A DNA stretch of 55,225 nucleotides, the filler included, from Catajapyx aquilonaris (taxonomy: Eukaryota): the NCBI GenBank assembly GCA_000934665.2. It is 2 parts of 2 records of this genome, joined end to end, with 100 filler letters (N's around TTAATTAATTAA, not from the genome) between each part and the next. Parts side by side here need not be neighbours in the genome. Positions count along the whole stretch, not along the records: positions 1 to 27,681 come from JYFJ02005062.1; 1 more part is not named here. One strand, 5' to 3'. Shown one piece after another: positions 1,532-29,289 of the stretch. The notes beneath the pieces were generated by a model. That model had not been told where the DNA came from, ran no database searches, and saw only the letters and a program-made list of their open reading frames with translations. The position numbers and the translations under genes are program-made. How positions within the stretch are numbered: position 1 is the stretch's first letter; each line of letters opens with the position of its first letter.

Positions 1532-4500
1532 TCACATGGGCGAAGGAGGTAATGGTGGGTAGTGAAACTCTCGTCGTTGAGGCGGTACCGTTATACCGTT
1601 GATACAAACAGCGGTTGGACACGAAATGTCCGAAGTGTCCAGCTTGCCCTGGATAGACCTGGGTGGACTTAGAGGCATCTTCTTGTGTCCTCTCGGAGGC
1701 GGTATGGGCGTCCTGGCTCTTGGTACGTCGTGGGTGTCGGTACCGGACGAGGCACTTCGTATGAGGTGCTTGAGGTAGTCGCGACCTTTGGTGAAGAAGC
1801 AGAGGAAGGTGCCCAGCAGTAGGATGGCGAACATGAGTGTCCCAAGACAGATGATGACCGGTACGTAGGCTCTGGTGGAAGTATGCTGGTCTTCGTCAAC
1901 ATCCAGGTCATGTGGAGGTCGAAGGTCGTGGTCTGGTATCTCGTTGTCTTCGTCCGATATGTCGTTGAACTCGGTGTCGTCAGATGCACCGTCTTTGTCC
2001 ACTATCATCACGTCTGCACATGCCCTGAATTCTTCTTGTGGACCGCAACCAACAGCACCCGTACCTGCAATACCAACATCCGTAGTGACCAATGAACACG
2101 AAGACATCGATGTAACGTACCGTTCTCGCATGTTCCCCAGTTGTTTCCGGCGATGTACTTCCACTGGAACACACACTGCGAGCATGTAAGACCATGCGGT
2201 AAACGCAGCTTGACCTCGTACACCTTGTTCTCCTCTCCAGGGTACACCATTGGTCCTGACCCGTCCGCTTGTTCCAGAAGGTACTTGTCCAGGCAGGACT
2301 GGCGGGCCACTCTCTTGAAGTTGTTGTTGGGACATACCCGGAACTCGAAGTGACCTCGGTGGTTGGCTGTCAGCTCAACTTTGACCCTGATGGCTGCCTC
2401 GGACCGGTACTTCCGGACAATGATGCCGTTGGAGTACTTGCCACCAGCTTCGTTGGGTCTGGGCTGGAAATGAGCGAAAATTGATTTAAAAGATTTAAAC
2501 GATTTAAATGAGTTAAAATATTTACAAGATTTAAACGAGTTAAAAGATTTACCAGATTTTAACGAGTCAAAAGATTTACCAGATTTAAGCGATTTAAAAG
2601 ATTTAAAAGATTTAAAATATTTAAAAGATTTAAAAGATTTAAAAGATTTAGAAGATTTGACCGATTTGAACGATTTAAAAGGTTTAACCGACTTAAAAGA
2701 TTTTAATGATTCGCCCAAGATTTAAAAGATTTGTGGGATTTATAGCGGATTTAAGCTATTCATAGTGGATTTGGAGTGATTTAGAGATGATTCAAATGAT
2801 TTAAGGAGGGTATACTGTATTTATGGAGGGTACTGTAAGTTATTTAGCTGATTGGGGGGGGGGGGGCTTTAACGATAAAAAGGTATCACGACAACTGGCT
2901 GCTTGTCATTTGGCTGCGGGTCATTTGGATGCTGCCTTTTAGTTGCTGATTAAATTGGCCTCACCAAATGTCGCGGCAGCCAAATGACCGGCAGCCAAAA
3001 GTCGTAGATTCGATTTAAAAATTAATTGCCGATTTAAGTGATTTATCAATGTCTTACATCAGATTCAAATGATTTTCAATGGTTCAAAACTGTTAAAATT
3101 TATTTGGATTTAAATGATTTATCAAGTAGCCCATTTAAAAGATTTGGGCTTAATGGCGAGTCATCATGGATTTAATATGATTTATGGATGATTAACATGA
3201 TTTATCATAAGTTCACAGCTGATTCAAATGATTCATTGAGGATATAAGTAATTTATAGCTGATTAGATGGGATTTGCTACTGATTTAAAACGATCAAAAT
3301 GATTAATTGCCGATTTAAGTGATTTAGAGCCGATTCTAGTGATTCATCGATGATTTTTAACGGATTCAAGTGATTTATCAATGGATTTCGGCTGATTCAA
3401 ATGATTATTTTTATCAATGATTAAAGCTATTTAAATGATTTAAGGAGGATTTAAGTGATTTATATGGATTTAGTAATGATTTAAGATGATATCAGCTAGA
3501 TTTGTCATGTACGAGCTACATGATTTACAATGATTCGAATTTTTAAAAAACTGATCAGCTATGCACAGGTACAGTACATTCAACTGTCCTTTTTTCCAGC
3601 ACATTCACCAGGTCTTCCAACCATGACCGTATTCTCCCAATAAATCCATTGTTGACAGGGCAATCACAGCGTGAGAAATCAGGTCTTGCCCTACTTTTAT
3701 ATGACCATGGTCGCGCGCATTGGGTGACAAAAATTGGGCGCACAATAATAATAATGAGAATACCGATTGTTCACTTGCTGACGAACGAATAGTGTCAAGA
3801 ACGACGGACACGCTTGATGTCAACCATCTTTATGACCTGAGAACAGGCTTGGGTCACTGTCCCCATGTTTTGTCGCGTATGTTTTATGACAGGATACTAG
3901 GACCTGTGTATTGTTTCGCTCTGGTGCAACCGTAGAACCGGTTGTATCAGTCCCAGTGTTTTAAACTGGCGAGTTTGACTGTTGCGACAACATTGTTGGC
4001 TGACCGAGCCATTCTATTGGCTGCAGCTGTGATCAACACTGTTGCCACATCGCTGCTTTCATTAACCAGCTAATTATTAGCCTCAATCATAATAATTTTA
4101 AACATTAAAACTAGGAAAACGCTCGCTCTTTTCTAGGCATACGGCCTGGGGTACCTATTCGGCGCACCATATCGCCGGGGAATGGACAGTTTCCCCGGCA
4201 ACCCAACAGGAGTTGTTTACACCCCCATTGCGCATGAGTAGAACGCGGGCCAATGGGGAGGTGGCGGTAACAATATGCGGAGGACCAATCAGTGGGCTCG
4301 GCCAACTCCCGCAAGGATTTTAAAATAATTATAGATATGTAATGTTTTATACATTTTAAAAATATATAAAAATAAAAATGCATACCTGTGTCTGGTCCCA
4401 CGCATCACCGCAGATCCCACATTTCCCCCCATTGTTAACCCATTGTCTGGTGAATCCTCCACAGTACAACTCATGGTCGTTGTAGTTCGGGGGCGTACTG

Positions 4501-6739: not shown

Positions 6740-7176
6740 GGGGTTAGCCGCTTTGGTGTACACCATGGTACTCCTAGGTCTCGTCAGGTACTTTACTCTT
6801 TGGTACTCCTTGGTACTCCTTGAATTTGATAGCCTACTCCTTGGTACTCCATAATTTGGTGGCCTACCCCTTGGTATACTCCTTGAATTTGGTGGCCTAC
6901 TCCTTGGTACCCCTTGAATTTGGTGGCCAACTCCTTGGTACCCTTTGAATTTGGTGGCCTACTCCTTGGTACTCCTTGAATTTGGTGGCCAACTCCTTGG
7001 TACCCCTTGAATTTGGTAGCCTACTCCTTGGTACTCCTTGAATTTGGTGGCCTACTCCTTGGTACTCCTTGAATTTGGTGGCCTACTCCTTGGTACCCCT
7101 TGAATTTGGTGGCCTACTCCTTGAATTTGGTACTCCAGTGTACTGTACACTTTACAGTCGAGTGGTTAACCCTTTG
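6740..7176 (+). mobile_element. MITE with an internally expanded 31-bp minisatellite (same family as 10227-10336)
   Basis: Ends GGGGTTAGCCGCT...AGTGGTTAACCCTTTG are imperfect TIRs; flanks GCTTGTT (6733-6739) and GCTTGTT (7177-7183); about 9-10 copies of CTACTCCTTGGTACTCCTTGAATTTGGTGGC inside. Confidence 0.7.
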
Positions 7177-9530
7177 GCTTGTTCAATAATTAATTATTGG
7201 TTGTTAACTAACCGGCCGTATGTATTTTAACTGCCACCGCCATTGTTGGACCCCAACCACGTGGTCATCACCAAAAATCGGTTATAAACTCACCTACTGC
7301 CCACTCAAGTCCAGACCGGCTCCATATGGACTGGCCCTCTCCAAGCAGCAGCACAAGGACAAATAAGCAAAAGAACAGAAAGAAAGTCCTAACTTGGGAA
7401 AGGGGATCACGCACACACGAATGCAGGAACAATGAGTAAACCTCTGTTGCAATATCCTACCGGAAGACTATAGTGAAAGAAAAAAAATCTACGAAGGCTA
7501 ACTAGCTTATGTGTGGTCTAGTCCACTGCTCCGACTGAACTGCATATCTTTTGAGGTGTGCACCATTGCTTCGGGGAGTAGGAGGGAGGTGGGTTTGGAA
7601 TAACGGGATAGGATAGGTGAAAACCTTGGCCTTCTTCTTCAGGTGTCTAAACCCCCTGGAGGGCAGGATGGGAAAAACATCTTGGAATATTTTTGGGGGA
7701 GGTCCTAAGAAGGTTGTTGCACCGTGGTTTATTGACAATACAATTGTGGCAAAACCATGATAACTATAGGCAATGTTGAGCATGAACATATTCACTAGGC
7801 AATGTGTTATGAACATAATTATTGAGTGGTATGAACTGTTCATACCACTCAATGAATAATTGAACAAAATTATTCATTGAGTGGTATGAACATATTCATA
7901 ATTGATAATGAATATTGCATGAATTGTCAGTATGTCAGAATTTAAATAGTTACGTAATTATTGGCTAATCAGACTTCCAGCTCCATTTATTCGACCTGGA
8001 AAGTTAACCTAGCGAACAACTAAATGGCGGCTGATAGTTTGACCCACTATTGGGCATCGGGTCTGGCCTGCTGGCCCCTTAAATCAAGAGGTTGGTGTGC
8101 GTAAATCTACATAACCGTAGGGGAACATACGTGAAAGTGCATGACCTACACTTTTCCTTTAGTTTAAATTTTTTTTTGAGGGAAATAAATATTAGGATGG
8201 GCATACCTTCCGTGCGGATTTTGCTCAACATGGCGGTCAGAAAGTGTTCACTATACACTATTATAGAGGATGTTATCAGTAAAAATCACGCGATATACTT
8301 ACTTCCTTATGTGCGTTACAATTTTTTTAAAGACAAAAAGGGCAATAACTGTTTTGTTGAGAGAAATTTTGTCGTGAAAGTGACATCTTTGCTGTGTTTT
8401 TGAGTGCATCATATTCTTAAAGTGGTAGGTTTTTCGTGGCGAAACTATCACGGATAGTGAGATAAGATTTTTTTTTTTGTTTGAGACAAAATGTGGTATG
8501 TGGTTCCGGTGTAAGTTTACGGAAATCCAGTAGCCTGTGGCTGAACTTGAGGTATTTCCAGTTGGATAATATCGCACCTGATGACGTTTCTTCTTCTATA
8601 CACATTGTTGTAAAATTTCCCCCCAGCTTCTCATTAATTAATTAATCACGCGTTAACAGCAACGATTAATTAGCGAAAACCCAGCTTGTTTACTCTTCCA
8701 GATCGTGCTGACACACATCAGCCATCAACAAACAATAAAACCGACCTATCCACCACCTGTTGAATAGAGAGTCCAAACTATCACCTTGAATCACATTGAC
8801 TTAGAAAGCCGGAAAGAAAAACAAAAATCATATGGACCCCGTTCTTTTCTATTCAACCCACGTCTTTTACAACAATACAAAAAAAAAAATTGGTCGAACT
8901 CTGTTGAACTTGTTGAAGATGATTTTACAAGCCACCGGAAAATCCGGTTCGATACAAATTTTTCTTTGCGAAATCAACCTACATATGTATCACGCTCAAT
9001 AGCTACTGGCATGGCAATATATTTTGGAAGGACACTGCGTGATAAGTCAAAATTTTCTGGATGTGAAAGTTTCCACGGTGAAGACCCTATAGAAAAAGAA
9101 GTTCCCTTGGGGGATTCGAATTTGCTACGCCACTGTTGGAATGCACCCTTTTATCATGCGAATTCAGGCGTGAAATTGTGCAAAAAAAATACTCGCAATT
9201 TGGTTCAAATCCTTGTCTGTTATTCCGGGATGTTCCCTCATTTTTATAGCTAGGAAGACAATGGCGATTGCTCTATTGCAAAAAAAATAAGGATGTTCCT
9301 TTTTGCGAAACTGGGCCACCTTGTAATGTGAAGAAAATATAGTTCGTTATCAAGATTGTTTGTTGTAGGATTATGCAACAGTTAGAGGTCAGCCTCGCAG
9401 TGCATAGACCTTTATGTTGAGGTTGGATAAATAAATAAATAATTAATAAGTAATTATTGAGAAAAGAAATAGGCTTGGAAATAGGTAACAAGTTAATAAG
9501 AAAATAGAGAAGTACGGTAAATAAATCGTT

Positions 9531-10000
9531 GAATAAATATGAATTAATTTCGATAAATAAATACCTGAATAAATATGAATTAATTTCGATAAACAAATAA
9601 GAATTAATTTCGATAAACAAATATGAATTAATTTCGATCACTAACTGTAAGTACCTGAATAAATATGAATTAACTTCGATAAACAAATCTGAATTAACTT
9701 CGATAAATCCCTGAATAAATATGAATTAATTTCGATGAACAAATCTGAATTAATTTCGATAAATACCTGAATTAATATGAATTAATTTCGATAAACAAAT
9801 ATGAATTAATTTCGATAAACAAATATGAATTAATTTCGATAAATAAATACCCGAATAAATATGAATTAATTTCGATAAACAAATATGAATTAATTTCGAT
9901 AAATAAATACCCGAATAAATATGAATTAATTTCGATAAACAAATATGAATTAATTTCGATAAATAAATACCTGAATAAATATGAATTAATTTCGATAAAT
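9531..10000. repeat. AT-rich minisatellite, 24/36-bp units (AAATATGAATTAATTTCGATAAAC)
   Basis: Clear tandem copies; source of the FIEINSYL-repeat ORFs. Confidence 0.9.
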
Positions 10001-10226
10001 AAAAATATCAAAATTAAATAAAATAATTTTAATAAGTAAAGCAAAATAATTTTAATAAATAAAACAAAATAATTGTAATAAATAAAAATAAATATTGTTC
10101 ATAGATAAAAATAAAATTTTATCAATGCATATATAAATAATTTTAATAAATGGATATAACATGTAACTCATTTTAATACATAAAAATTGCAACAAAAATT
10201 ACGTATTAAAAATCATTAACCAAAAT

Positions 10227-11738: not shown

Positions 11739-12484
11739 TTAGTAGCCGTAGGATTGCTTCTGCTCATACTTGGGCTGCTCGTAGCCGTAAGACTGCTTCC
11801 CTTCGTATTTGGGCTGCTCGTACTTCTGCTCGTAGCCATAGGACTGCTGCTCGTACTTTGGCTGCTCGTACTTCATCTCGTATTTGGGCTGCTCGTAGCC
11901 GTACGACTGCTTCTGCTGGTAGCCATAGGACTGCTTCTGCTCATACTTGGGCTGCTCGTATCCGTAGGATTTCTCTTCGTATTTGGGCTGCTCGTAGCCG
12001 TAGGATTTCTCTTCGTACTTGGGCTGCTCGTATCCGTAGGATTTCTCCTCGTACTTGGGCTGCTCGTACTTCTGCTCGTAGCCGTAGGACTGCTTCTGCT
12101 CATACTTTGGCTGCTCGTAACCGTAGGATTTCTCTTCGTATTTGGGCTGCTCGTACTTCTGCTCATACTTTGGCTGCTCGTAGCCGTAGGACTGCTTCTG
12201 CTCGTAACCATAGCTCTTCTGCTCGTACTTGGACTGCTCGTAGCCGTAGCTCTTCTGCTCGTAACCATATGACTGTTTCGGCTGGTAGTAGCTCTGCTTG
12301 GCTTCGTACCCGTAGGACTTGGGAGCCGCCTTCTCGTAGACGGCCATCCCATACTCAGCAGCCGAAGTGACAGCGACCAGCGCCAAGAAGATGGACAGCA
12401 TCTGTAGGAAAGAAACAATGAGCGTAAACCATACAATATTCAAGCAACACGTACTGTACAACAAACCCTTACTGCATAAGCCAT
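11739..12484 (-). CDS. Secreted Tyr/Glu/Lys/Gln-rich repeat protein A (~224 aa; structural/cuticle/adhesive-like)
   Basis: Exon 1 12484-12473 (MAYA, GTAAGG donor); exon 2 12401-11739 after TTCCTACAG. Signal peptide, then SYGYEQPKYE(E/Q/M)K repeats. TATAAAA at 12574-12568; AATAAA at 11672-11667. Confidence 0.88.
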
Positions 12485-12567
12485 AGCTACAGTTCTTCTA
12501 AACTTCCAGTGATATGGTCCGGTATGGCTAGTGGGATGGAGAGGGCGCATAGGGAGAGGCACCCCGC

Positions 12568-12645
12568 TTTTATAGTCGCCAGCAGCCCCCTGATTGGATC
12601 CTGCCCCAGTGAGTGTACAGGTGAGCCTTGTCACGTGATATGAGG
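12568..12645 (-). promoter_or_regulatory. Promoter of repeat-protein gene A: TATA, CCAAT, E-box
   Basis: TATAAAA, CCAATCAG ~20 bp upstream and TCACGTGA; same order as in paralogs B and C. Confidence 0.65.
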
Positions 12646-12691
12646 AGAGATAGACATAATATGTTCTGTCTATGGCGTGGTTGCCAACAAG

Positions 12692-12781
12692 CCTTCGGTA
12701 GCTCAGTTGGTAGAGCGGTGGACTGTAGTTGGCTCGAAAGCAGTTATCCATAGGTCACTGGTTCAAATCCGGTCCGAAGGA
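12692..12781 (+). tRNA. tRNA-Tyr-GTA: tRNA-Tyr(GTA), 17-nt intron
   Basis: CCTTCGGTAGCTCAGTTGGTAGAGCGGTGGACTGTAG [TTGGCTCGAAAGCAGTT] ATCCATAGGTCACTGGTTCAAATCCGGTCCGAAGGA; all stems pair; T-run Pol III terminator follows. Confidence 0.96.
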
Positions 12782-13259
12782 GTTTTTTTTTGTCGTTAAC
12801 AAAGTGTATCATTGTTTTTGCAAATCATGCAATATGACTTGTTACAACTGAACAATCTCCAACTCATGGCTATTTTTTGTTTCAAGCGAGGTTTCAAGAC
12901 GAATTATAATTCAGCCCCAGCTGCTTGTCGAAGCTTTAGAATGATAGTGCTGATAGTGTCATATTTTTGACACACTGAATATCTCTACTGCTGTTGCGAT
13001 ATTCCGGGAACACTGCCAATACGAAACTGTATGATTCCCCCCATTGCTAAGAGAAAATGAAATTAGGCAAATGCACTTTTCTGCGACAGGAAGTTTATTC
13101 AGAATCAGAATAATCAGTGTACGTTAGGCCTCAGGTCTTTGCGGCTGTTTTTGTACATGTACCGGCACAGAAGACAAATTTAAGAATATAACAGTGATAA
13201 CACAAGTAATGTGGGGTGGTAAGGTGTGACATGTGCAAAGAGTCATTACTGGTCGTTTA

Positions 13260-15108
<1,849 letters not shown>

Positions 15109-16081
15109 TATTCGGAGGATTCTGCACTTTTTCACGTATGGCACTAAATCAGAGGACTCCTTTCTCCTCAATCCTATGGGGCGTACTGCTTAAATAGTGA
15201 CATTGGTGACCATAGTACGCAGATAAAACATCCATGGGCCGAGGGCAAAGACTTGCATTATCGGAAGAGATGTTGGTGGCTTGATCTCGCCCCACTTAAT
15301 GACCTGCATCAGGAGATGCAAAGTGTTCCTATATGGTTGGGGCGAAAAGTGGTCACATTCGCCTGACTACCAAAATGGAACACCATGTACAAAGTACGGG
15401 AGTCGCGTGTGGTCATTGGGGTTATTTGATTTCATCAGAGGGAGCAATGTACCATCTCATAGAATGTGCCAAATGTAATATAGGGCAGTAATATTAATTC
15501 AGTATGCTTAGTTATAACACAGGTCAAGTCTTGTTCTGCAGATTATGGTTTGGCGAAAATCAGCAATTATTGAAACTTAAAATCATGACAGGAGACGCAA
15601 GAACAATTATTTTGAATTTCCAACTGGCGATTGCAACATTTTAGATCCCACTTGTTCATCAGGTTATATTTTCATAAACCTTTTGGATACACAGGCTCAA
15701 AATAATGTGAAGCCATGAAACGCTGTTATTTTGGACACATTTCCTGTATTAATGACTGTCATTACAAAATTAGTCACATTACTTCAAGAATGTATTAACA
15801 TTTTTGCACCTTTAGTCATGATTTAAACTTTGCAAAATTGTAATACAAACACTTAATCTCTAGAAGAGATTAAATTGGCCATCTGTCGTCTACCGAAAAT
15901 TATGGCGGTCAATGAAAATTGAGATTCTTCCACTTAACTGGCCAGAAGAGTTCACACTGAAAAGTAGATGGGCAAAAGGAATGTAGAACAGATTTTGGTC
16001 ACTGGAAGTTTATTGTATGGTTCAATGTTGAAAATGCTTATTTACAAGTTTTTAGCCATATTTGCTCTACAAAAGGAGGCA

Positions 16082-16898
16082 TTAGTAGCCATACGACTGT
16101 TTAGTCTCGTAGCCGTAGGACTGCTTCTGCTCATACTTGGGCTGCTCGTAGCCATAGGACTGCTTCATCTCGTACTTGGGCTGCTCGTACCCGTAGCTCT
16201 TCTGCTCGTATCCATACGACTGCTTCTCTTCGTATTTTGGCTCTTCGTACTTCTGCTCGTATCCATAGGACTGCTTCTCGTACTTGGGCTGCTCGTATCC
16301 GTAGGACTGCTTCTCGTACTTGGGCTGCTCGTATCCGTATGATTTCTCTTCGTACTTGGGCTGCTCGTATCCGTAGGACTGCTTCATCTCGTACTTCTGC
16401 TCATACTTGGGCTGCTCGTAGCTGTAGCTCTTCTGTTCGTATTTAGGCTGCTCGTAACCATAGCTCTGCTCATACTTTGGGTGCTCGTAGTCATACGACG
16501 ACTGCTTCATCTCGTACTTGGGCTGCTCGTATCCGTAAGACTGCTTCTCTTCGTGTTTGGGCTGCTCGTACTTCTGCTCGTATCCGTAGGATTTCTCTTC
16601 GTACTTTGGCTGCTCGTAACCGTAGGACTGCTTCATCTGGTAACCATAGCTCTTCTGCTCGTACTTTGGCTGCTCGTAACCATACTGCTTCGGCTGGTAG
16701 TAGCCCTGCTTTGCTTCGTACCCATAGGACTTCGGAGCCGCCTTCTCGTAGACGGCCATCCCATACTCAGCAGCGGAAGTGACAGCGACCAGCACCAAGA
16801 AGATGGACAGCGTCTGAAAGGGAGCACAAAACAGCAGTTAATAAACCGACGATTCCCAAACACATTCTCGTCATAACAATACTGACTCCGCAAGACAT
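16082..16898 (-). CDS. Secreted Tyr/Glu/Lys/Gln-rich repeat protein B (~247 aa)
   Basis: Exon 1 16898-16887 (MSCG, GTCAGT donor); exon 2 16813-16082 after CTTTCAG. N-terminus nearly identical to A (AAEYGMAVYEKAAPKSYGYEAKQ). TATAAAA 16988-16982; AATAAA 16014-16009. Confidence 0.88.
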
Positions 16899-16981
16899 GT
16901 CTACACTCTTGTACTTCCAGTGACTTGTTAGGAGTAAAACAATGTACGAGCAAAGAGGAGGAAGAGGGAAGGACACTTGGC

Positions 16982-17056
16982 TTTTATATTGGTCAGCAGC
17001 TCTCTGATTGGATGTTGACTCAATATGCAAACTAATTGTAGCACGTGACTTGAGGT
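16982..17056 (-). promoter_or_regulatory. Promoter of repeat-protein gene B: TATA, CCAAT, octamer-like, E-box
   Basis: ttttata, ctgattgg, atgcaaac and cacgtgacttgagg, colinear with A and C. Confidence 0.65.
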
Positions 17057-17635
17057 GACAGGATATGGTTTCTTTCATATAAAAAGACATTGCCCATCGC
17101 CTCAGGTCATGACCTTCGAATCGTTATCATTTAGCTGACAATTCAGCATATACAGTAATGCAGCTTTAAATTATGTTTATTGCTTAACAAGCAGTTACTG
17201 ATGTAATAACAGACGAGTAAATATTGTTGTTATTTGTTGCCTAACAATATTAACATTGTAGTAGAATGAGAATCAACACACAGGATGTTCCTGTACTTTA
17301 TCAACTTTTTATTGCGGTAAGCTGCTTGTTTTCAGCAGTTATTTTTGAGTTGTTACTATTAGTGGGCATCAAAATAATGTAATAGATACTATAGGCCGAA
17401 TAGAATTCAATTGCAATGTACCTATTGGGAACGGCCCATTGCAACAATATAATTGGGATCTAACAACTTCAAAGCCCATTTTGACATGCGTGAAAATCCA
17501 TGCAAATAGTTTTTAGCTGCTAACACATATTATAACCATTAAAATTATCTGCATTAAAAATCTGCTAAAAAGATGGAAAAAGTATGGTAGTTTTGTTTCA
17601 TCTAATTAAGGATGGAAACAAATTAAAAGACCAAG

Positions 17636-17726
17636 TCCTTCGGACCGGATTTGAACCAGTGACCTATGGATGTCTGCTGTTAGATCCAACTACAGTCCAC
17701 CGCTCTACCAACTGAGCTACCGAAGG
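17636..17726 (-). tRNA. tRNA-Tyr-GTA: tRNA-Tyr(GTA), 18-nt intron
   Basis: Mature sequence identical to the 12692 copy; intron TTGGATCTAACAGCAGAC; T-run downstream. Confidence 0.96.
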
Positions 17727-18099
17727 CTTACTTGAGAAGGGTCCTTTCATGGACAAGGTTAACATCAACGTCAAGAATGCAAATAGTGGCAGTTGCATGA
17801 TACGGGTGTGAATATTGGCAAATGCCCAGAACTATCTTTGTAGACATTCAATAAAAGGAGATAAACCAGGAGGCTATCTATATTGGCTTTCAAATTAATA
17901 ACCAAAATATTAGATATAGAAAAATTTGACGCGATTTCAATTTTCGCAGCAAAGTATCCTCCAAATGATCGTCTGGTCATCTGCATGTATTGGATAAATT
18001 ATAAATAAATTGCCAACAAAACATTATAAAATTCCACTGAATAGAGACATTCGAATGTGAGACTGAAACTATGGTAAACATTTCATTTAAAAAAATAAC

Positions 18100-18189
18100 T
18101 CCGTTGGACCGGATTTGAACCAGTGACCTATGGATGCCTGCTTTCCAACCAACTACAGTCCACTGCTCTACCAACTGAGCTACCGAAGG
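18100..18189 (-). tRNA. tRNA-Tyr-GTA: tRNA-Tyr(GTA), 17-nt intron, two acceptor-stem mismatches (probable pseudogene or weak copy)
   Basis: 3' acceptor strand reads CCAACGGA instead of CCGAAGGA (pairs 3:70 and 5:68 broken), plus G26A; intron TTGGTTGGAAAGCAGGC; A/B boxes and terminator intact. Confidence 0.85.
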
Positions 18190-19114
18190 CTTGTTGATGA
18201 ACACTTCTCATTTTTACTCACACTAAAGGGTCAGAGATTACAATACATATTTTGTACTGTAATAAAATTCAAGTCATTTCAAAAGGCAATTATCGTAAAT
18301 AGTAGTAGACTGATTAAGGACATCAGATAAATTAAGGATATTACAGTATATCAGCAAAAGCTAGCTAAAATACTGCATTCTATTGGGAGGTGGAATATAC
18401 CAGGGTATACCAAATTCGTGGGTCGTTTTTTATAACTAAAATCGCCCGATAGTAGTTATTTTTCTGAAATTTGTTGTGCCCCGATCTAGAAGGTTACCCA
18501 TGACTACCAGGTGGTCGCATATAGCAGTTGCTATAAAATGGGACACCTGGTTTTAGGAGCACAACCTGCTACAAAAAACTAATATTTGGCGATACCAGTG
18601 ACAAAAACAAACCACACATTTTGGAACAATTAACCAGTTTACACCTAGCTAAATTGTTTTTCAATCAACTTTCAAATGGAATCAGAAAAATGGTCGCAAT
18701 ATACAACTGTAGTATTTAAATACGCTCTAGGTCAATGAGCACTTGTCTCCTTTTCCTTTACTAGAAAAATGACCGAGGTACTTAATGCAGATTAAATTTT
18801 TTTATTTGCACCTTTAAATTTAATTTATTCAATCCTACCTGGTAATTTATTCCGGGTTTTGCATATGCCCCACTAATCCTAGATATTAAAAGTAGGGAAA
18901 TCATTGTAATTTTTTTTTTTGCCAACTGAAAAGGGCTAAGTGTGAGGCCATTGTTGCAGCACTTTGGCATTATATGCCTCGGTTAATGAGTTTGATCAAG
19001 TTGCAGGCCACTGCCTTGAAGCGACTAGGGTGTTTTGGGTGCTAGATTGAAGTACTGTATTTTAAATCATGGATGCACTGGTTTTATTTTGGCTAGCAAG
19101 TACAAAAGTGGATT

Positions 19115-19971
19115 TCAGTAACCATATTTTGGTTGCTCGTAGCCATAGGACTGCTTCTCGTATTTGGGCTGCTCGTAGCCGTAGGACTGCTTCTCGTATT
19201 TGGGCTGCTCGTAGCCGTAGGATTTCTCTTCGTATTTGGGCTGCTCGTAGCCGTAGGATTTCTCTTCGTATTTGGGCTGCTCGTAGCCGTAGGATTTCTC
19301 TTCGTATTTGGGCTGCTCGTAGCCGTAGGACTGCTTCATCTCGTACTTGGGCTGCTCGTAGCCGTAGGATTTCTCTTCGTACTTGGGCTGCTCGTACCCG
19401 TAGGATTTCTCTTCGTACTTGGGCTGCTCGTACCCGTAGGATTTCTCTTCGTACTTGGGCTGCTCGTACCCGTAGGACTGCTTCATCTCGTACTTGGGCT
19501 GCTCGTAGCCGTAGGATTTCTCTTCGTACTTGGGCTGCTCGTACCCGTAGGATTTCTCTTCGTACTTGGGCTGCTCGTACCCGTAGGATTTCTCTTCGTA
19601 CTTGGGCTGCTCGTACCCGTAGGACTGCTTCATCTCGTACTTGGGCTGCTCATAGCCGTAGGATTTCTCTTCGTACTTGGGCTTCTCGTACCCGTAGCTC
19701 TTCTGATCATAGCCGTAGGACTGCTTCTCGTACTTGGGCTGCTCGTATTTTTGCTCGTAGCCGTAGGACTGCTTCATCTGGTATTTGGGTTGTTCGTAAC
19801 CGTAGGACTTGGGAGCTTCCTTTCCATACACCGCCACGCCGTAGTCAGCCGCTGCTGAGAAGGCGACCAGCGCCAAGAAGATGGTCAGCACCTGCAGAAA
19901 ATACCACAGAATATTAGTAAATCATCCTAAACACATCACTTCTTACTACACGAACTTACAGAGTACATCAT
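19115..19971 (-). CDS. Secreted Tyr/Glu/Lys/Gln-rich repeat protein C (~262 aa)
   Basis: Exon 1 19971-19960 (MMYS, GTAAGT donor); exon 2 19891-19115 after TTTCTGCAG. Highly regular SYGYEQPKYEEK / SYGYEQPKYEMKQ units. TATAAAA 20059-20053; AATAAA near 19088-19083. Confidence 0.88.
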
Positions 19972-20052
19972 GATTACTGCAGAGTGTGACAGGGAAGCGT
20001 GCTCTAATTGAGAGTCAAAGTAAAGAGGAAGGAGTTGGCCTCAGACTCCTTC

Positions 20053-20130
20053 TTTTATAGCAAAACAATCGTGTTCTCATTGGATGATCTTCTAATATGC
20101 AAATGAGCAGCATCACATGACTTGAGGCAC
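20053..20130 (-). promoter_or_regulatory. Promoter of repeat-protein gene C: TATA, CCAAT, octamer ATGCAAAT, E-box
   Basis: ttttata, cattgg, atgcaaat and cacatgacttgagg. Confidence 0.65.
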
Positions 20131-21409
20131 AGAAAAATGTGGAGGGTTTTTAAAAAGTCAAATGGGGAAAAAACCAGGTCCTTAGCCTCACCAACATGTT
20201 ATTTTATCTAAAGTCAAACATTAAAAAAATTTTTTACAAATGTTGCTGAACATAATTCGGACAATAACAAAACACACAAAAGAAAAGTAAAATAACACTC
20301 AAACTAAATAAAACGCAAATTAAATCAAAAGATTGAATAAAAATCGGGTAGAACAATTCGGCACACATTTGACTGAATTAATTTTTAGTTATTTGTGCAA
20401 TTATCTCTTATCTCTGATCTATTAACTGATTATTATTTATATTTGAATTATATATTATTAATTACATTTATTTGACAGATTACTGATTATTTATTATTAT
20501 CACGGAATTATTTATAACTAGCTAATTATTTACCACTTATTTAATGTTATAACTAGCTAATTATTTACTACTTATTTAATTTTATAACTAGCTAATTATT
20601 AACATCTCTCGTTATTTATGATTTATTGCTAGCTTTTTATTATTTTATTCCTAATTATTTCGCGACATCTTGCATATGATTGCATATGATTGGCTACAGA
20701 GGTCACTTCCGGTGCAATTAAATCTTGCTGAGTAATTTTATATCATTAAATCAGCATTAACAGGACACTCTTACAGTAATGAGGAGATATTAGCTCACCT
20801 TTTTATTCCCATAGAAAGTGACCTGTTTTTTTGTTGTACTTTCAAGACGACATTTTTTTCGTGCAAATTTGATGGAGCGAAAAAATATCCAGTAATATTA
20901 CGAAACTATAGGAACGTGATTAGCACATTTGCCATCTCATCCGATTGGTAGTAGTAATATTCATGTGGACATGACTTCCGCGTCTTGGTCCACTGAAGGT
21001 GACATCGACCGTGGTTGACATTTGTTTCACTTTCAATGTAATTATTAAAGAAGCACAATCATGTCCGGTTGTAAAGTACAGTAGGCTACATGTGACTTTG
21101 ATCCTTAATGGTTTTTTTTTATTGCCTTTAATTGATCTCACGGTCCGAATATTTAAGGCTGTAAAAATACCTTGGTAATCGTGGGACACATAATTATATT
21201 GCACATGCAACAGTCTGATAATTGTCTTGCTAATTACAATGTTCACATGATCACATGATCAGACTCAAAATAAAAAAGGGGGGAAAAACTGTTCGAGTTT
21301 TAAATTTATTTTTTTTTTAAACCGCTAATGTCATTGAGTGGCTTATAAATATTAATAAATACGAAATAATAAGTAGCTATACCAATAACTTAGCAATTCA
21401 TCGTTCACG

Positions 21410-21730
21410 CCAATGCAATGAATTAACACCAATTAATTTTAATAAAATCAATTAAGAGAACTACGGTAACCCAAATTAAGTATTATTAACAAATAATTAA
21501 AATTAACGCCAATTAACCGCAATTAAACCGATTAACGCCAATTAATCATAGTTAAGTATTAGCTACAATATCAATTAAAATAATTAATCACAATTAAATC
21601 AATTAACGCCAATTAACCGTAGTTAAGTATTATCAACAATATCAATTAAAATAAATAATCATAATTAAGTATCATTAACAACAATCAATTAAAATTAACA
21701 CTAATTAACATTGCCAATTTATTACTAATT
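21410..21730. repeat. AT-rich degenerate tandem repeat (AATTAACGCCAATTAA)
   Basis: Several copies of aattaacgccaattaa and ttaagtatt. Confidence 0.7.
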
Positions 21731-22054
21731 AGCCTAATAACATAAGGAACAGATCATTTTTTTTCAAAATTATCATAATATATTAATATATCTGACAATG
21801 GCGAAATGAAGGTTGTGATTATAATCATTAATCTCACATATTTTTTCCAATAATTTATGCAACTATTTGCAACCATTCTGATCATAGTCTGTGTAGGAAG
21901 TAGTATGATTAAATCCATTGATAACCTTCAGTCTGGTTTGATTGAATGAACCAGATTTCACCCTAGGCTCATTGCCAGAACCAGTTTGGTTTTTTTGTCC
22001 ACTGATTAGATTGAAGCATTACATGGAGTAAAAGTTGGAGTAGTAGTCAACAAG

Positions 22055-22144
22055 CCTTCGGTAGCTCAGTTGGTAGAGCGGTGGACTGTAGTTGGTTGGA
22101 TAGCAGGCATCCATAGGTCACTGGTTCAAATCCGGTCCGAAGGA
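22055..22144 (+). tRNA. tRNA-Tyr-GTA: tRNA-Tyr(GTA), 17-nt intron
   Basis: Intact cloverleaf; intron TTGGTTGGATAGCAGGC; T-run terminator follows. Confidence 0.96.
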
Positions 22145-22493
22145 CTATTTTTTCTTATATTTTCCATACTTAGTCAAATGCAGCACTAGGTGCCACCTGG
22201 TGTAGCATAACCGATCCATGTAAAACCCTGAAGAGAATGTACCAATAACTTGTACCTGACCACGGTACCTGACCTACATGCGAAGTGTCTGGTACCATTA
22301 ATGGGCCAGTTCACATCCGGAACAAATTGCATTTGACAACCATGGGAAATTCATGCAATCTGATGACGTCATGCTATTATGTTCTAATCACGCCAAGGAC
22401 TTAAACAAAATTACTGAAGACATGTCATACACATGCTCGTGCAGTACCGGTACATGCTATTTGACCGAATAAGAATATTTGGCAAAAATGAAG

Positions 22494-22584
22494 TCCTTCG
22501 GACCGGATTTGAACCAGTGACCTATGGATGTCTGCTGCTAGATCCAACTACAGTCCACCGCTCTACCAACTGAGCTACCGAAGG
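22494..22584 (-). tRNA. tRNA-Tyr-GTA: tRNA-Tyr(GTA), 18-nt intron
   Basis: Intact cloverleaf; intron TTGGATCTAGCAGCAGAC; T-run downstream. Confidence 0.96.
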
Positions 22585-29165: not shown

Positions 29166-29289
29166 CCTTCTGAGACCCGATGTCCAATATATTGGACATC
29201 AGCAAAAAAAAAAAAGTGTCAACTGAAATTGACGCCAATTTTTTTTTTTGTGCTGATGTCCAATATATTGGACATCGGGTCTCAGGAGG
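29166..29289. mobile_element. 124-bp palindromic MITE flanked by ATAT
   Basis: ~39-bp near-perfect TIRs CCTTCTGAGACCCGATGTCCAATATATTGGACATCAGCA; A-run pairs with T-run internally; ATAT on both sides. Confidence 0.8.

What the first reader, a model, noticed from the sequence alone, without database searches (positions are those of the whole stretch)
11739..22584. Tyrosine supply-and-demand cluster: three ~25%-Tyr secreted protein genes interleaved with five tRNA-Tyr genes
Seen: within 11 kb there are three paralogous genes whose 12-aa repeat has 3 Tyr (mostly TAC codons), and five tRNA-Tyr(GTA) genes. No other intact tRNA isotype occurs in the 55-kb window. Each protein gene has tRNA-Tyr on its 5' side: A ~120 bp beyond its TATA, B ~0.65 and ~1.1 kb, C ~2.0 and ~2.4 kb. 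Established: tissues that mass-produce compositionally biased proteins adapt their tRNA pools (Bombyx silk-gland tRNA-Ala/Gly), but I know of no case where the cognate tRNA genes sit among the client genes. Inference: a eukaryotic operon-like module in which opening the locus for Pol II also switches on extra Pol III tRNA-Tyr copies. Caveat: one chance adjacency followed by tandem co-duplication would give the same map, although four of five copies remain identical in mature sequence while introns and flanks diverged.
Basis: partly seen in the sequence, partly recalled or inferred. Interest (0 to 1): 0.9.

Follow-up and report, generated by a model that had tools for sequence, protein, structure and literature searches.

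The report
Tyrosine tRNA genes among tyrosine-rich genes
Three neighbouring genes for secreted proteins that are almost one-quarter tyrosine lie mixed with five tyrosine-tRNA genes in an arthropod-like genome, a real and eye-catching match whose meaning (accident copied by duplication, or a built-in supply of the needed tRNA) could not be settled here.

Summary
Rfam finds five intron-bearing tRNA-Tyr(GTA) genes and no other tRNA-like match in 55 kb, even at E<=1. Three two-exon paralogs on the minus strand encode signal-peptide proteins with 22.6-23.3% Tyr and 138 TAC against 27 TAT codons. The stated distances are correct. Corrections:
- One tRNA (18100-18189) has two acceptor-stem mismatches and is probably impaired.
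- The introns are not all diverged: they form two 94%-identical pairs, while the flanks sit at shuffle level.

The protein genes are real and old (dN/dS about 0.08, dS 0.6-1.3). The tRNAs form one local family that looks homogenised independently of the protein genes.

The operon-like reading could not be tested:
- No genome is held.
- No true homologues or syntenic loci were found.

Best reading (0.5): one founder adjacency, then local co-amplification and concerted evolution. A selected supply-and-demand coupling remains open (about 0.25). It has functional but not positional precedent in the Arabidopsis Ser/Tyr tRNA cluster and the Bombyx silk gland (PMC12308677). Mouse data found no neighbour effect (PMC4216921).

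The parts
11739..12401 (-). Gene A, exon 2 (signal peptide remainder plus Tyr-rich repeats, stop included)
   Evidence: ORF and translation. Tyr is 22.7%, TAC:TAT 41:9. An AG acceptor precedes 12401.
12473..12484 (-). Gene A, inferred exon 1 coding part (4 codons, ATG...GCA, then a GT donor); intron 12402-12472
   Evidence: Read directly. The same 4-codon, phase-0 first exon occurs in all three paralogs. No RNA evidence.
12567..12574 (-). Gene A TATAAAAG box, preceded by a CCAAT box and a CACGTG motif
   Evidence: the promoter core aligns among A, B and C.
12692..12781 (+). T1, tRNA-Tyr(GTA), 17-nt intron, divergent from gene A, 117 bp from its TATA box
   Evidence: Rfam 60.8 bits. ARAGORN i(38,17) and a T9 run 2 nt downstream.
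13260..14905 (-). Unrelated fibrinogen-C-domain gene lying between gene A/T1 and gene B (upper limit approximate)
   Evidence: Pfam PF00147, E 1.3e-38, on 13260-13742. Further FBG-like and coiled-coil-like open frames reach about 14905.
16082..16813 (-). Gene B, exon 2
   Evidence: Tyr is 22.6%, TAC:TAT 42:13.
16887..16898 (-). Gene B, inferred exon 1 coding part (4 codons); intron 16814-16886
   Evidence: Read; aligned. No RNA evidence.
16981..16988 (-). Gene B TATAAAAG box
17636..17726 (-). T2, tRNA-Tyr(GTA), 18-nt intron (type a)
   Evidence: Rfam 60.7 bits. The intron differs from T5's by 1 of 18.
18100..18189 (-). T3, tRNA-Tyr-like, 17-nt intron (type b), three substitutions in the mature part, two acceptor-stem mismatches; probably impaired
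   Evidence: Rfam 51.3 bits with two non-standard pairs marked. Sequence. Missed by ARAGORN.
19115..19891 (-). Gene C, exon 2
   Evidence: Tyr is 23.3%, TAC:TAT 55:5.
19960..19971 (-). Gene C, inferred exon 1 coding part (4 codons); intron 19892-19959
   Evidence: Read; aligned. No RNA evidence.
20052..20059 (-). Gene C TATAAAAG box
22055..22144 (+). T4, tRNA-Tyr(GTA), 17-nt intron (type b, 1 of 17 different from T3), opposite orientation to T3
   Evidence: Rfam 60.8 bits.
22494..22584 (-). T5, tRNA-Tyr(GTA), 18-nt intron (type a)
   Evidence: Rfam 60.7 bits.

Best explanation
The locus is a lineage-specific tandem family of three genes for secreted, low-complexity, roughly 23%-Tyr structural proteins. 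They are probably a cross-linkable extracellular matrix of cuticle or eggshell type; that function is inferred from composition only. The family sits inside a local family of five intron-bearing tRNA-Tyr genes descended from one founder copy. Most likely one tRNA-Tyr gene once happened to lie next to the ancestral Tyr-rich gene. Both kinds of gene then multiplied within the same roughly 11 kb by local duplication. Since then the tRNA copies have been kept alike by purifying selection and short-tract exchange (concerted evolution), except for one copy that is decaying. On this reading the tRNAs are ordinary Pol III genes that add to the general tRNA-Tyr pool, and no dedicated co-regulation with the protein genes is needed. 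Shown: the anatomy, the age and constraint of the protein genes, and the independent homogenisation of the tRNAs. Inferred: the founder adjacency, the order of events and the protein's function.
For: (1) All five tRNAs share short proximal flanks. The 5' flanks of T1, T3 and T4 end in CAACAAG. T3 and T4 share about 30 bp of 5' flank, and T2 and T4 share about 42 bp of 3' flank. They are therefore one local family, not five independent arrivals.
(2) A type-a plus type-b intron pair lies upstream of gene B (T2, T3) and again upstream of gene C (T5, T4). This is the pattern expected if a unit holding a gene and two tRNAs was copied.
(3) The protein genes are old duplicates under purifying selection. 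By NG86, dN/dS is 0.050/0.61 for A-B, 0.072/0.91 for A-C and 0.093/1.32 for B-C. Unalignable intergenic DNA is therefore expected.
(4) The intron pairs are 94% identical, while the +-100 bp flanks score 0.47-0.64 against a shuffle baseline of about 0.55. The tRNAs have thus been homogenised or re-copied on their own. This matches the published behaviour of animal tRNA genes: local tandem proliferation, concerted evolution, rapid turnover and escape to pseudogenes (PMC4981973, passages read). T3 looks like such an escapee.
(5) An unrelated fibrinogen-domain gene sits inside the cluster and T4 is inverted relative to T3. The arrangement is untidy rather than a regular designed unit.
(6) In mouse tissues no consistent co-localisation effect was found between tRNA gene use and neighbouring protein-coding gene expression (PMC4216921).
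Against: The isotype match is striking. Proteins with about 23% Tyr are rare, and 5 of 5 tRNA genes and 3 of 3 such genes in 55 kb share the same 11 kb.

I cannot compute the chance of the founder adjacency without the genome. With assumed figures (a few tRNA-Tyr loci, tens of Tyr-rich loci, a genome of 10^8-10^9 bases) it would be well under 1% for this amino acid. It is larger once all 20 amino acids and the many windows scanned are allowed for. This is my inference, not a tool result.

Four mature tRNAs stayed identical over a time in which synonymous sites nearly saturated, so these copies are used.

The gene tree ((A,B),C) disagrees with the tRNA intron pairing, which links the B and C units. 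Plain co-duplication therefore needs added gene conversion.

T1 sits 117 bp from a strong TATA/CCAAT promoter, so the two must share chromatin state.

A functional precedent exists for specialised tRNA-Tyr genes that support a Tyr-rich secreted repeat protein (PMC12308677).
Confidence: 0.5

Rival explanations
1. Supply-and-demand module. The tRNA-Tyr copies lie in the same chromatin domain as the Tyr-rich genes. When the locus opens in the secretory tissue, Pol III transcribes them as well, raising tRNA-Tyr just where about 50-60 Tyr codons per message must be read. Selection keeps the linkage.
For: The isotype match and co-extensive boundaries. Strong TAC preference, 138:27, matching the GTA anticodon. 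T1 is divergent from gene A with 117 bp between the tRNA start and the TATA box, next to the conserved CACGTG/CCAAT/TATA core. Four intact copies have complete Pol III terminators and identical mature sequences despite old, saturated surroundings. Precedents for specialised clustered tRNA genes serving biased secreted repeat proteins are the Arabidopsis SYY Ser/Tyr cluster, whose deletion altered accumulation of an extensin reporter, and the Bombyx silk-gland tRNA-Ala genes (PMC12308677; abstract, Discussion and passages read). That paper also cites yeast work in which Pol II activity at tRNA genes favours Pol III transcription.
Against: There are no expression data of any kind and no comparative data. 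The number and location of the genome's other tRNA-Tyr genes are unknown. In neither precedent, as far as I read, do the tRNA genes sit among the client genes. The mouse study found no neighbour effect (PMC4216921). T2-T5 lie 0.65-2.4 kb from the promoters, one copy is decaying, and an unrelated gene interrupts the cluster. Mature tRNA is diffusible and long-lived, so linkage is not needed for supply.
Confidence: 0.25
2. Dosage co-amplification without co-regulation. The tRNAs are constitutive, possibly the genome's main tRNA-Tyr source. Duplications that copied a Tyr-rich gene together with a tRNA-Tyr were favoured, because more client protein raises the organism-wide need for tRNA-Tyr.
For: The same map evidence as above. 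The repeated type-a/type-b tRNA pair beside genes B and C. tRNA gene copy number tracks codon frequency across genomes, as stated in the introduction of PMC12308677.
Against: It cannot be told apart from neutral co-duplication with the data in hand. The tRNA copies appear homogenised independently of the gene units.
Confidence: 0.15
3. Isotype-blind architectural role. The tRNA genes act through TFIIIC/TFIIIB binding as nucleosome-free boundary or insulator elements between tandem paralogs, or their near-identical sequences served as substrates for unequal recombination that built the array. That they are Tyr is incidental.
For: tRNA genes lie between every pair of neighbouring units. The mosaic flank relationships (T4's 5' flank resembles T3's, its 3' flank resembles T2's) suggest exchanges between copies. 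Insulator activity of tRNA genes is established knowledge that I recall, and is only touched on in the listing.
Against: It does not explain the isotype match. The copies are in mixed orientation. The roughly 90-bp homology is short. No flank homology marks recombination junctions.
Confidence: 0.08

Closest known systems
Arabidopsis thaliana SYY cluster (tandem tRNA-Ser/tRNA-Tyr genes on chromosome 1) and extensins (Hummel et al. 2025, PMC12308677)
   Same: Both have clustered, locally amplified tRNA-Tyr genes and a proposed role in feeding translation of secreted tandem-repeat structural proteins that are rich in Tyr and cross-linked through Tyr.
   Different: In Arabidopsis the cluster is a large regular tRNA-only array in heterochromatin and is not described as interleaved with the client genes. 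Its tissue-specific expression and a deletion phenotype were shown. Here there are five irregularly placed copies physically among the client genes, and nothing is known about expression.
[quoted passage not shown] 1988 and others, seen only as cited in PMC12308677)
   Same: An animal secretory tissue, a compositionally extreme repeat protein, and tightly clustered cognate tRNA genes.
   Different: The silk-gland tRNA-Ala is a sequence variant with tissue-specific transcription (recalled). The genes are not reported to lie among the fibroin genes. Here the mature sequences look canonical, and no variant status can be judged without the genome.
Ordinary homotypic tRNA gene clusters of animals evolving by tandem duplication and concerted evolution (Velandia-Huerto et al. 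2016, PMC4981973)
   Same: Local proliferation, identical mature sequences, strand switches within clusters, variable introns, and occasional decaying copies.
   Different: Those clusters have no reported relation to the amino-acid composition of neighbouring genes.
Arthropod low-complexity Tyr-rich secreted proteins (cuticle-type; the same genome's Tyr/Gly-rich peptide cluster in note e1-7594945)
   Same: Signal peptide, short Tyr-centred repeats, tandem paralogs and no globular domain.
   Different: No Pfam family matches. Only composition-level look-alikes were found. The language-model neighbours (arthropod 'pupal cuticle protein' and 'keratin-like' clusters) score 0.77-0.79, below the level at which such a hit means anything.

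Membership tests
Eukaryotic nuclear tRNA-Tyr(GUA) genes | Cloverleaf that scores above the Rfam RF00005 gathering score (29 bits) | tested here: met
   5 of 5 score 51.3-60.8 bits. T3 has two non-standard acceptor pairs.
Eukaryotic nuclear tRNA-Tyr(GUA) genes | GTA anticodon at 34-36 and a short intron one base 3' of the anticodon | tested here: met
   ARAGORN reports the gta anticodon in the 4 of 5 it calls, and i(38,17) for T1 and T4. By sequence, introns of 17-18 nt split 37-nt and 36-nt exons in all five.
Eukaryotic nuclear tRNA-Tyr(GUA) genes | Pol III terminator (T run) close downstream | tested here: met
   A run of 4-9 T starts 2-8 nt after each of the five.
Specialised tRNA gene clusters serving a biased secretory proteome (Arabidopsis SYY, Bombyx silk-gland tRNA-Ala) | Clustered, locally amplified tRNA genes of one or two isotypes | tested here: met
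   Five tRNA-Tyr lie within 9.9 kb, and no other tRNA occurs in 55 kb.
Specialised tRNA gene clusters serving a biased secretory proteome (Arabidopsis SYY, Bombyx silk-gland tRNA-Ala) | Client protein strongly enriched in the cognate residue | tested here: met
   22.6-23.3% Tyr, 84% of it as TAC.
Specialised tRNA gene clusters serving a biased secretory proteome (Arabidopsis SYY, Bombyx silk-gland tRNA-Ala) | Tissue- or stage-specific transcription of the clustered copies, matching the client | not testable with these tools
Specialised tRNA gene clusters serving a biased secretory proteome (Arabidopsis SYY, Bombyx silk-gland tRNA-Ala) | Clustered copies distinguishable from dispersed housekeeping copies, and making up a defined share of the isotype's genes | not testable with these tools
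   No genome is held for the window.
   T1 and gene A are divergent, with 117 bp between the tRNA start and the TATA box. The other four tRNAs lie 0.65-2.4 kb away. There are no expression data.
Chitin-binding (R&R) cuticular proteins | Pfam chitin-binding domain | tested here: not met
   0 Pfam families at E<=0.01 for all three proteins.

The most novel reading that the evidence does not exclude
A physically coupled translation-supply module in an animal. Cognate tRNA-Tyr genes are kept among the genes for about-23%-Tyr secreted proteins and share their chromatin domain (one shares a 117-bp divergent spacer with a client promoter). Activating the locus would then raise both the Tyr-hungry messages and the tRNA that reads them. 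I did not find such an arrangement described in four full-text searches.
Probability: 0.25. Interest if true: 0.85.

Novelty: new variant of a known kind. Interest (0 to 1): 0.5.

Why it matters
Whether multicopy tRNA genes are individually regulated to meet the needs of particular cell types is an open question. The best cases are the Bombyx silk gland and the Arabidopsis root cap, and both involve tRNA clusters that lie apart from their client genes. Here the cognate tRNA genes sit among the clients, and each copy carries its own intron tag. Intron-specific pre-tRNA reads, Pol III occupancy and small deletions could therefore test local coupling of Pol II and Pol III output directly. If the link is only historical, the locus still shows clearly how tRNA genes evolve in concert inside an old, diverging gene array.

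Tried and rejected
- Whole-genome tRNA count: no genome is held for this window.
- Sequencing-run search: 7 runs were listed. The holders of half or more of the words are DNA runs of one coded organism.
- Protein homologues. The word-indexed search gave 1 hit among 5576 candidates, a coiled-coil protein with a PKYEE tail, i.e. low complexity only. The full HMMER scan of 1.84 billion representatives gave 23 hits at E<=0.001 and none at 1e-30. I read 11 of the 23, and all 11 were compositional look-alikes (mucin-like repeats, short secreted SYGY/KPSY proteins) without the conserved N-terminus. The window's own genes do not appear there, so absence of orthologues is not shown.
- Metagenome scan with the three-protein alignment gave 7 loci. 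Five are short contigs with other Tyr-rich PKYE modular proteins, and L006 is a bacterial DnaA-like gene with a low-complexity linker. ARAGORN found 0 tRNAs in 7 of 7 loci, but the contigs are too short, or unrelated, to count as a synteny test.
- Earlier notes of this scan: nothing near the locus, nothing by sequence for T2 or gene B, nothing in relatives, and no eukaryotic note of cognate tRNA/client interleaving.
- Papers: no paper holds the repeat motifs. Searches for cognate-tRNA/client adjacency found nothing. A search for crustacean tRNA cluster surveys returned mostly mitochondrial-genome papers and some nuclear genome-assembly reports, none on tRNA gene clusters.
- I had recalled that Schmitt et al. 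2014 linked tRNA gene changes to neighbouring genes. The text says the opposite, so I use it as evidence against.
- Extended co-duplicated flanks: none was detectable even with 7-base words.
Full report
**What is there**

Rfam at gathering threshold finds five tRNA genes in the 55225-base window, all tRNA-Tyr with a GTA anticodon:

| tRNA | Coordinates | Strand | Bits |
|---|---|---|---|
| T1 | 12692-12781 | + | 60.8 |
| T2 | 17636-17726 | - | 60.7 |
| T3 | 18100-18189 | - | 51.3 |
| T4 | 22055-22144 | + | 60.8 |
| T5 | 22494-22584 | - | 60.7 |

- A permissive scan of the whole window at E<=1 adds no further tRNA-like match.
- ARAGORN finds 4 of the 5, missing T3. With its intron option it reports a 17-nt intron at position 38 for T1 and T4.
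- By sequence, all five have a 37-nt first exon, a 17- or 18-nt intron and a 36-nt second exon. Each has a run of 4-9 T starting 2-8 nt downstream, i.e. a Pol III terminator.
- Four mature sequences are identical. T3 has three substitutions, two of which break acceptor-stem pairs, so it is probably impaired.

**The protein genes**

Three paralogs lie on the minus strand. Each has a CCAAT box and a TATAAAAG box, a four-codon first exon ending at a GT donor, an intron of about 70 nt, and a second exon that completes a signal peptide and then runs through SYGYEQPKYE(E/Q/M)K-type repeats. Second-exon products:

| Gene | Exon 2 | Tyr | TAC:TAT |
|---|---|---|---|
| A | 11739-12401 | 22.7% | 41:9 |
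| B | 16082-16813 | 22.6% | 42:13 |
| C | 19115-19891 | 23.3% | 55:5 |

- Together that is 138 TAC against 27 TAT.
- The exon-1 models rest on the sequence alone; I have no RNA evidence.
- A protein-guided codon comparison gives dN/dS of 0.050/0.61 (A-B), 0.072/0.91 (A-C) and 0.093/1.32 (B-C). These are real coding genes under purifying selection, and the duplications are old. Aligning repeats tends to understate dS.
- No Pfam family matches any of the three.
- A six-frame scan for Tyr-rich open stretches finds only these three genes, apart from frames over microsatellite or AT-rich repeats and three short open frames with 8-9 Tyr in their best 50 residues, which I did not examine.

**How the pieces are related**

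- Self-comparison of 10.5-24 kb shows no homology between the units outside the coding repeats, a short promoter core and the tRNAs themselves, even with 7-base words. With dS of 0.6-1.3, that is expected for old duplicates.
- The tRNAs share only short proximal flanks. The 5' flanks of T1, T3 and T4 end in the same heptamer. T3 and T4 share about 30 bp upstream, and T2 and T4 share about 42 bp downstream. All five therefore descend from one founder, and their flank relationships are mosaic.
- The introns fall into two near-identical pairs: T2/T5 differ at 1 of 18 positions and T3/T4 at 1 of 17. T1 is apart, at 4 of 17 from T3. Global identity of the +-100 bp flanks is 0.47-0.64, against about 0.55 for shuffled sequence.
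- One type-a and one type-b tRNA thus lie upstream of gene B, and again upstream of gene C. That fits a copied unit of gene plus two tRNAs.
- The introns are far more alike than synonymous sites of B and C, and the a and b types differ from each other by a third. So the similarity within pairs is not due to constraint on the intron. It points to short-tract exchange or re-copying of the tRNA genes alone.
- The gene tree ((A,B),C), taken from dS, N-termini and 3' UTRs, does not match the tRNA pairing, which points the same way.
- This is how animal tRNA genes are reported to evolve: tandem proliferation, concerted evolution, fast turnover and escape to pseudogenes (PMC4981973, passages).

**Surroundings**

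A fibrinogen-C-domain gene (Pfam E 1.3e-38) lies between gene A/T1 and gene B. An LPMO_10-like exon lies at 2008-2721. The cluster is fully inside the window. The 11.7 kb before it and the 32.6 kb after it hold neither tRNAs nor Tyr-rich genes. Earlier notes of this scan describe the genome as arthropod, crustacean-like.

**What could not be tested**

- No genome is held, so the share of tRNA-Tyr genes lying here is unknown.
- No RNA run was listed.
- Sequence searches gave only compositional look-alikes, and the window's own genes are not in those libraries.
- The metagenome scan returned short contigs with other Tyr-rich modular proteins and one bacterial gene, none with a tRNA.
- Synteny, copy share and expression, the three tests that would decide the matter, therefore remain open.

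**Weighing the readings**

The five tRNAs count as about one independent adjacency. The chance of that adjacency cannot be computed here. My rough figure, with assumed numbers, is well under 1% for tyrosine alone. It rises once all amino acids and the very many windows scanned are allowed for. This is inference, not a tool result.

For a functional link:
- The isotype match, the TAC bias, the long-term maintenance of four identical copies, and T1's place 117 bp from a strong promoter.
- A real precedent: in Arabidopsis a clustered set of tRNA-Tyr/Ser genes is switched on in root-cap cells, and its deletion altered accumulation of a Ser/Tyr/Pro-rich extensin reporter. The authors draw the parallel with Bombyx silk-gland tRNA genes (PMC12308677; abstract, Discussion and passages).

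Against it:
- In neither precedent, as far as I read, are the tRNA genes placed among the clients.
- Mature tRNA diffuses, so linkage is not needed for supply.
- The layout here is irregular, with an unrelated gene inside and one decaying copy.
- The mouse developmental study found no consistent relation between changes in tRNA gene use and neighbouring protein-coding genes (PMC4216921, passages).

I therefore put founder adjacency plus local co-amplification and concerted evolution at 0.5. A co-regulated supply module gets 0.25, selected dosage co-amplification without co-regulation 0.15, and an isotype-blind architectural or recombinational role 0.08.

**Novelty**

Homotypic tRNA clusters and lineage-specific low-complexity secreted gene families are both ordinary. 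What my four full-text searches did not find is cognate tRNA genes interleaved with extreme-composition client genes. These searches cover open-access papers and preprints only. The repeat motifs occur in no paper searched. I rate the locus a new variant of a known kind, of moderate interest. It is a clean, cheaply testable candidate, not a demonstrated mechanism.

Noticed in passing
window 18100-18189 (-): T3 carries three substitutions relative to the other four tRNA-Tyr copies, and two of them break acceptor-stem pairs. It scores 51.3 bits against about 60.8 and is missed by ARAGORN. It looks like a copy that has escaped concerted evolution.
   Followed up: partly
window 13260-14905 (-): A fibrinogen-C-domain gene (PF00147, E 1.3e-38) lies inside the cluster between gene A/T1 and gene B. 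It has a Thr/Pro/Ser-rich 18-bp-repeat exon and a coiled-coil-like exon.
   Followed up: partly
window 2008-2721 (-): An open frame with an LPMO_10-like (copper monooxygenase-type) domain. It is preceded in the same frame by a 9-bp tandem repeat (27.6 copies, 2483-2732) that encodes FKS-type triplets.
   Followed up: no
L002 365-370, 809-814 and 1229-1234; also L001: These metagenome contigs encode other Tyr-rich modules (DDYGYG..., PKYEAPKYE...) in one continuous frame. The frame is broken by an in-frame stop after each '...EPW' and resumes at 'G(N/Q)DMWG'; the first two stops, which I read, are TAA. This could be a reassigned or read-through stop, a GTAAG splice donor, or a polycistronic layout.
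   Followed up: no
window 6804-7123 and 9518-10151: A 31-bp tandem repeat (10.3 copies, 91% matches) and an AT-rich satellite-like block with 24/36/60-bp periods lie upstream of the cluster.
   Followed up: no
window 29169-29285 (+): A sub-threshold Rfam match to a plant microRNA precursor family (RF03839, 52.5 bits against a gathering score of 120, E 2.2e-07). It is probably a hairpin or repeat and not that family.
   Followed up: no
window 12631-12636, 17033-17038 and the aligned site of gene C: A CACGTG (CATGTG in gene C) motif within a conserved CCTCA..TCAYGTG block lies about 55-60 bp upstream of the TATA box in all three promoters. In gene A it is only about 55 bp from the start of T1.
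   Followed up: partly
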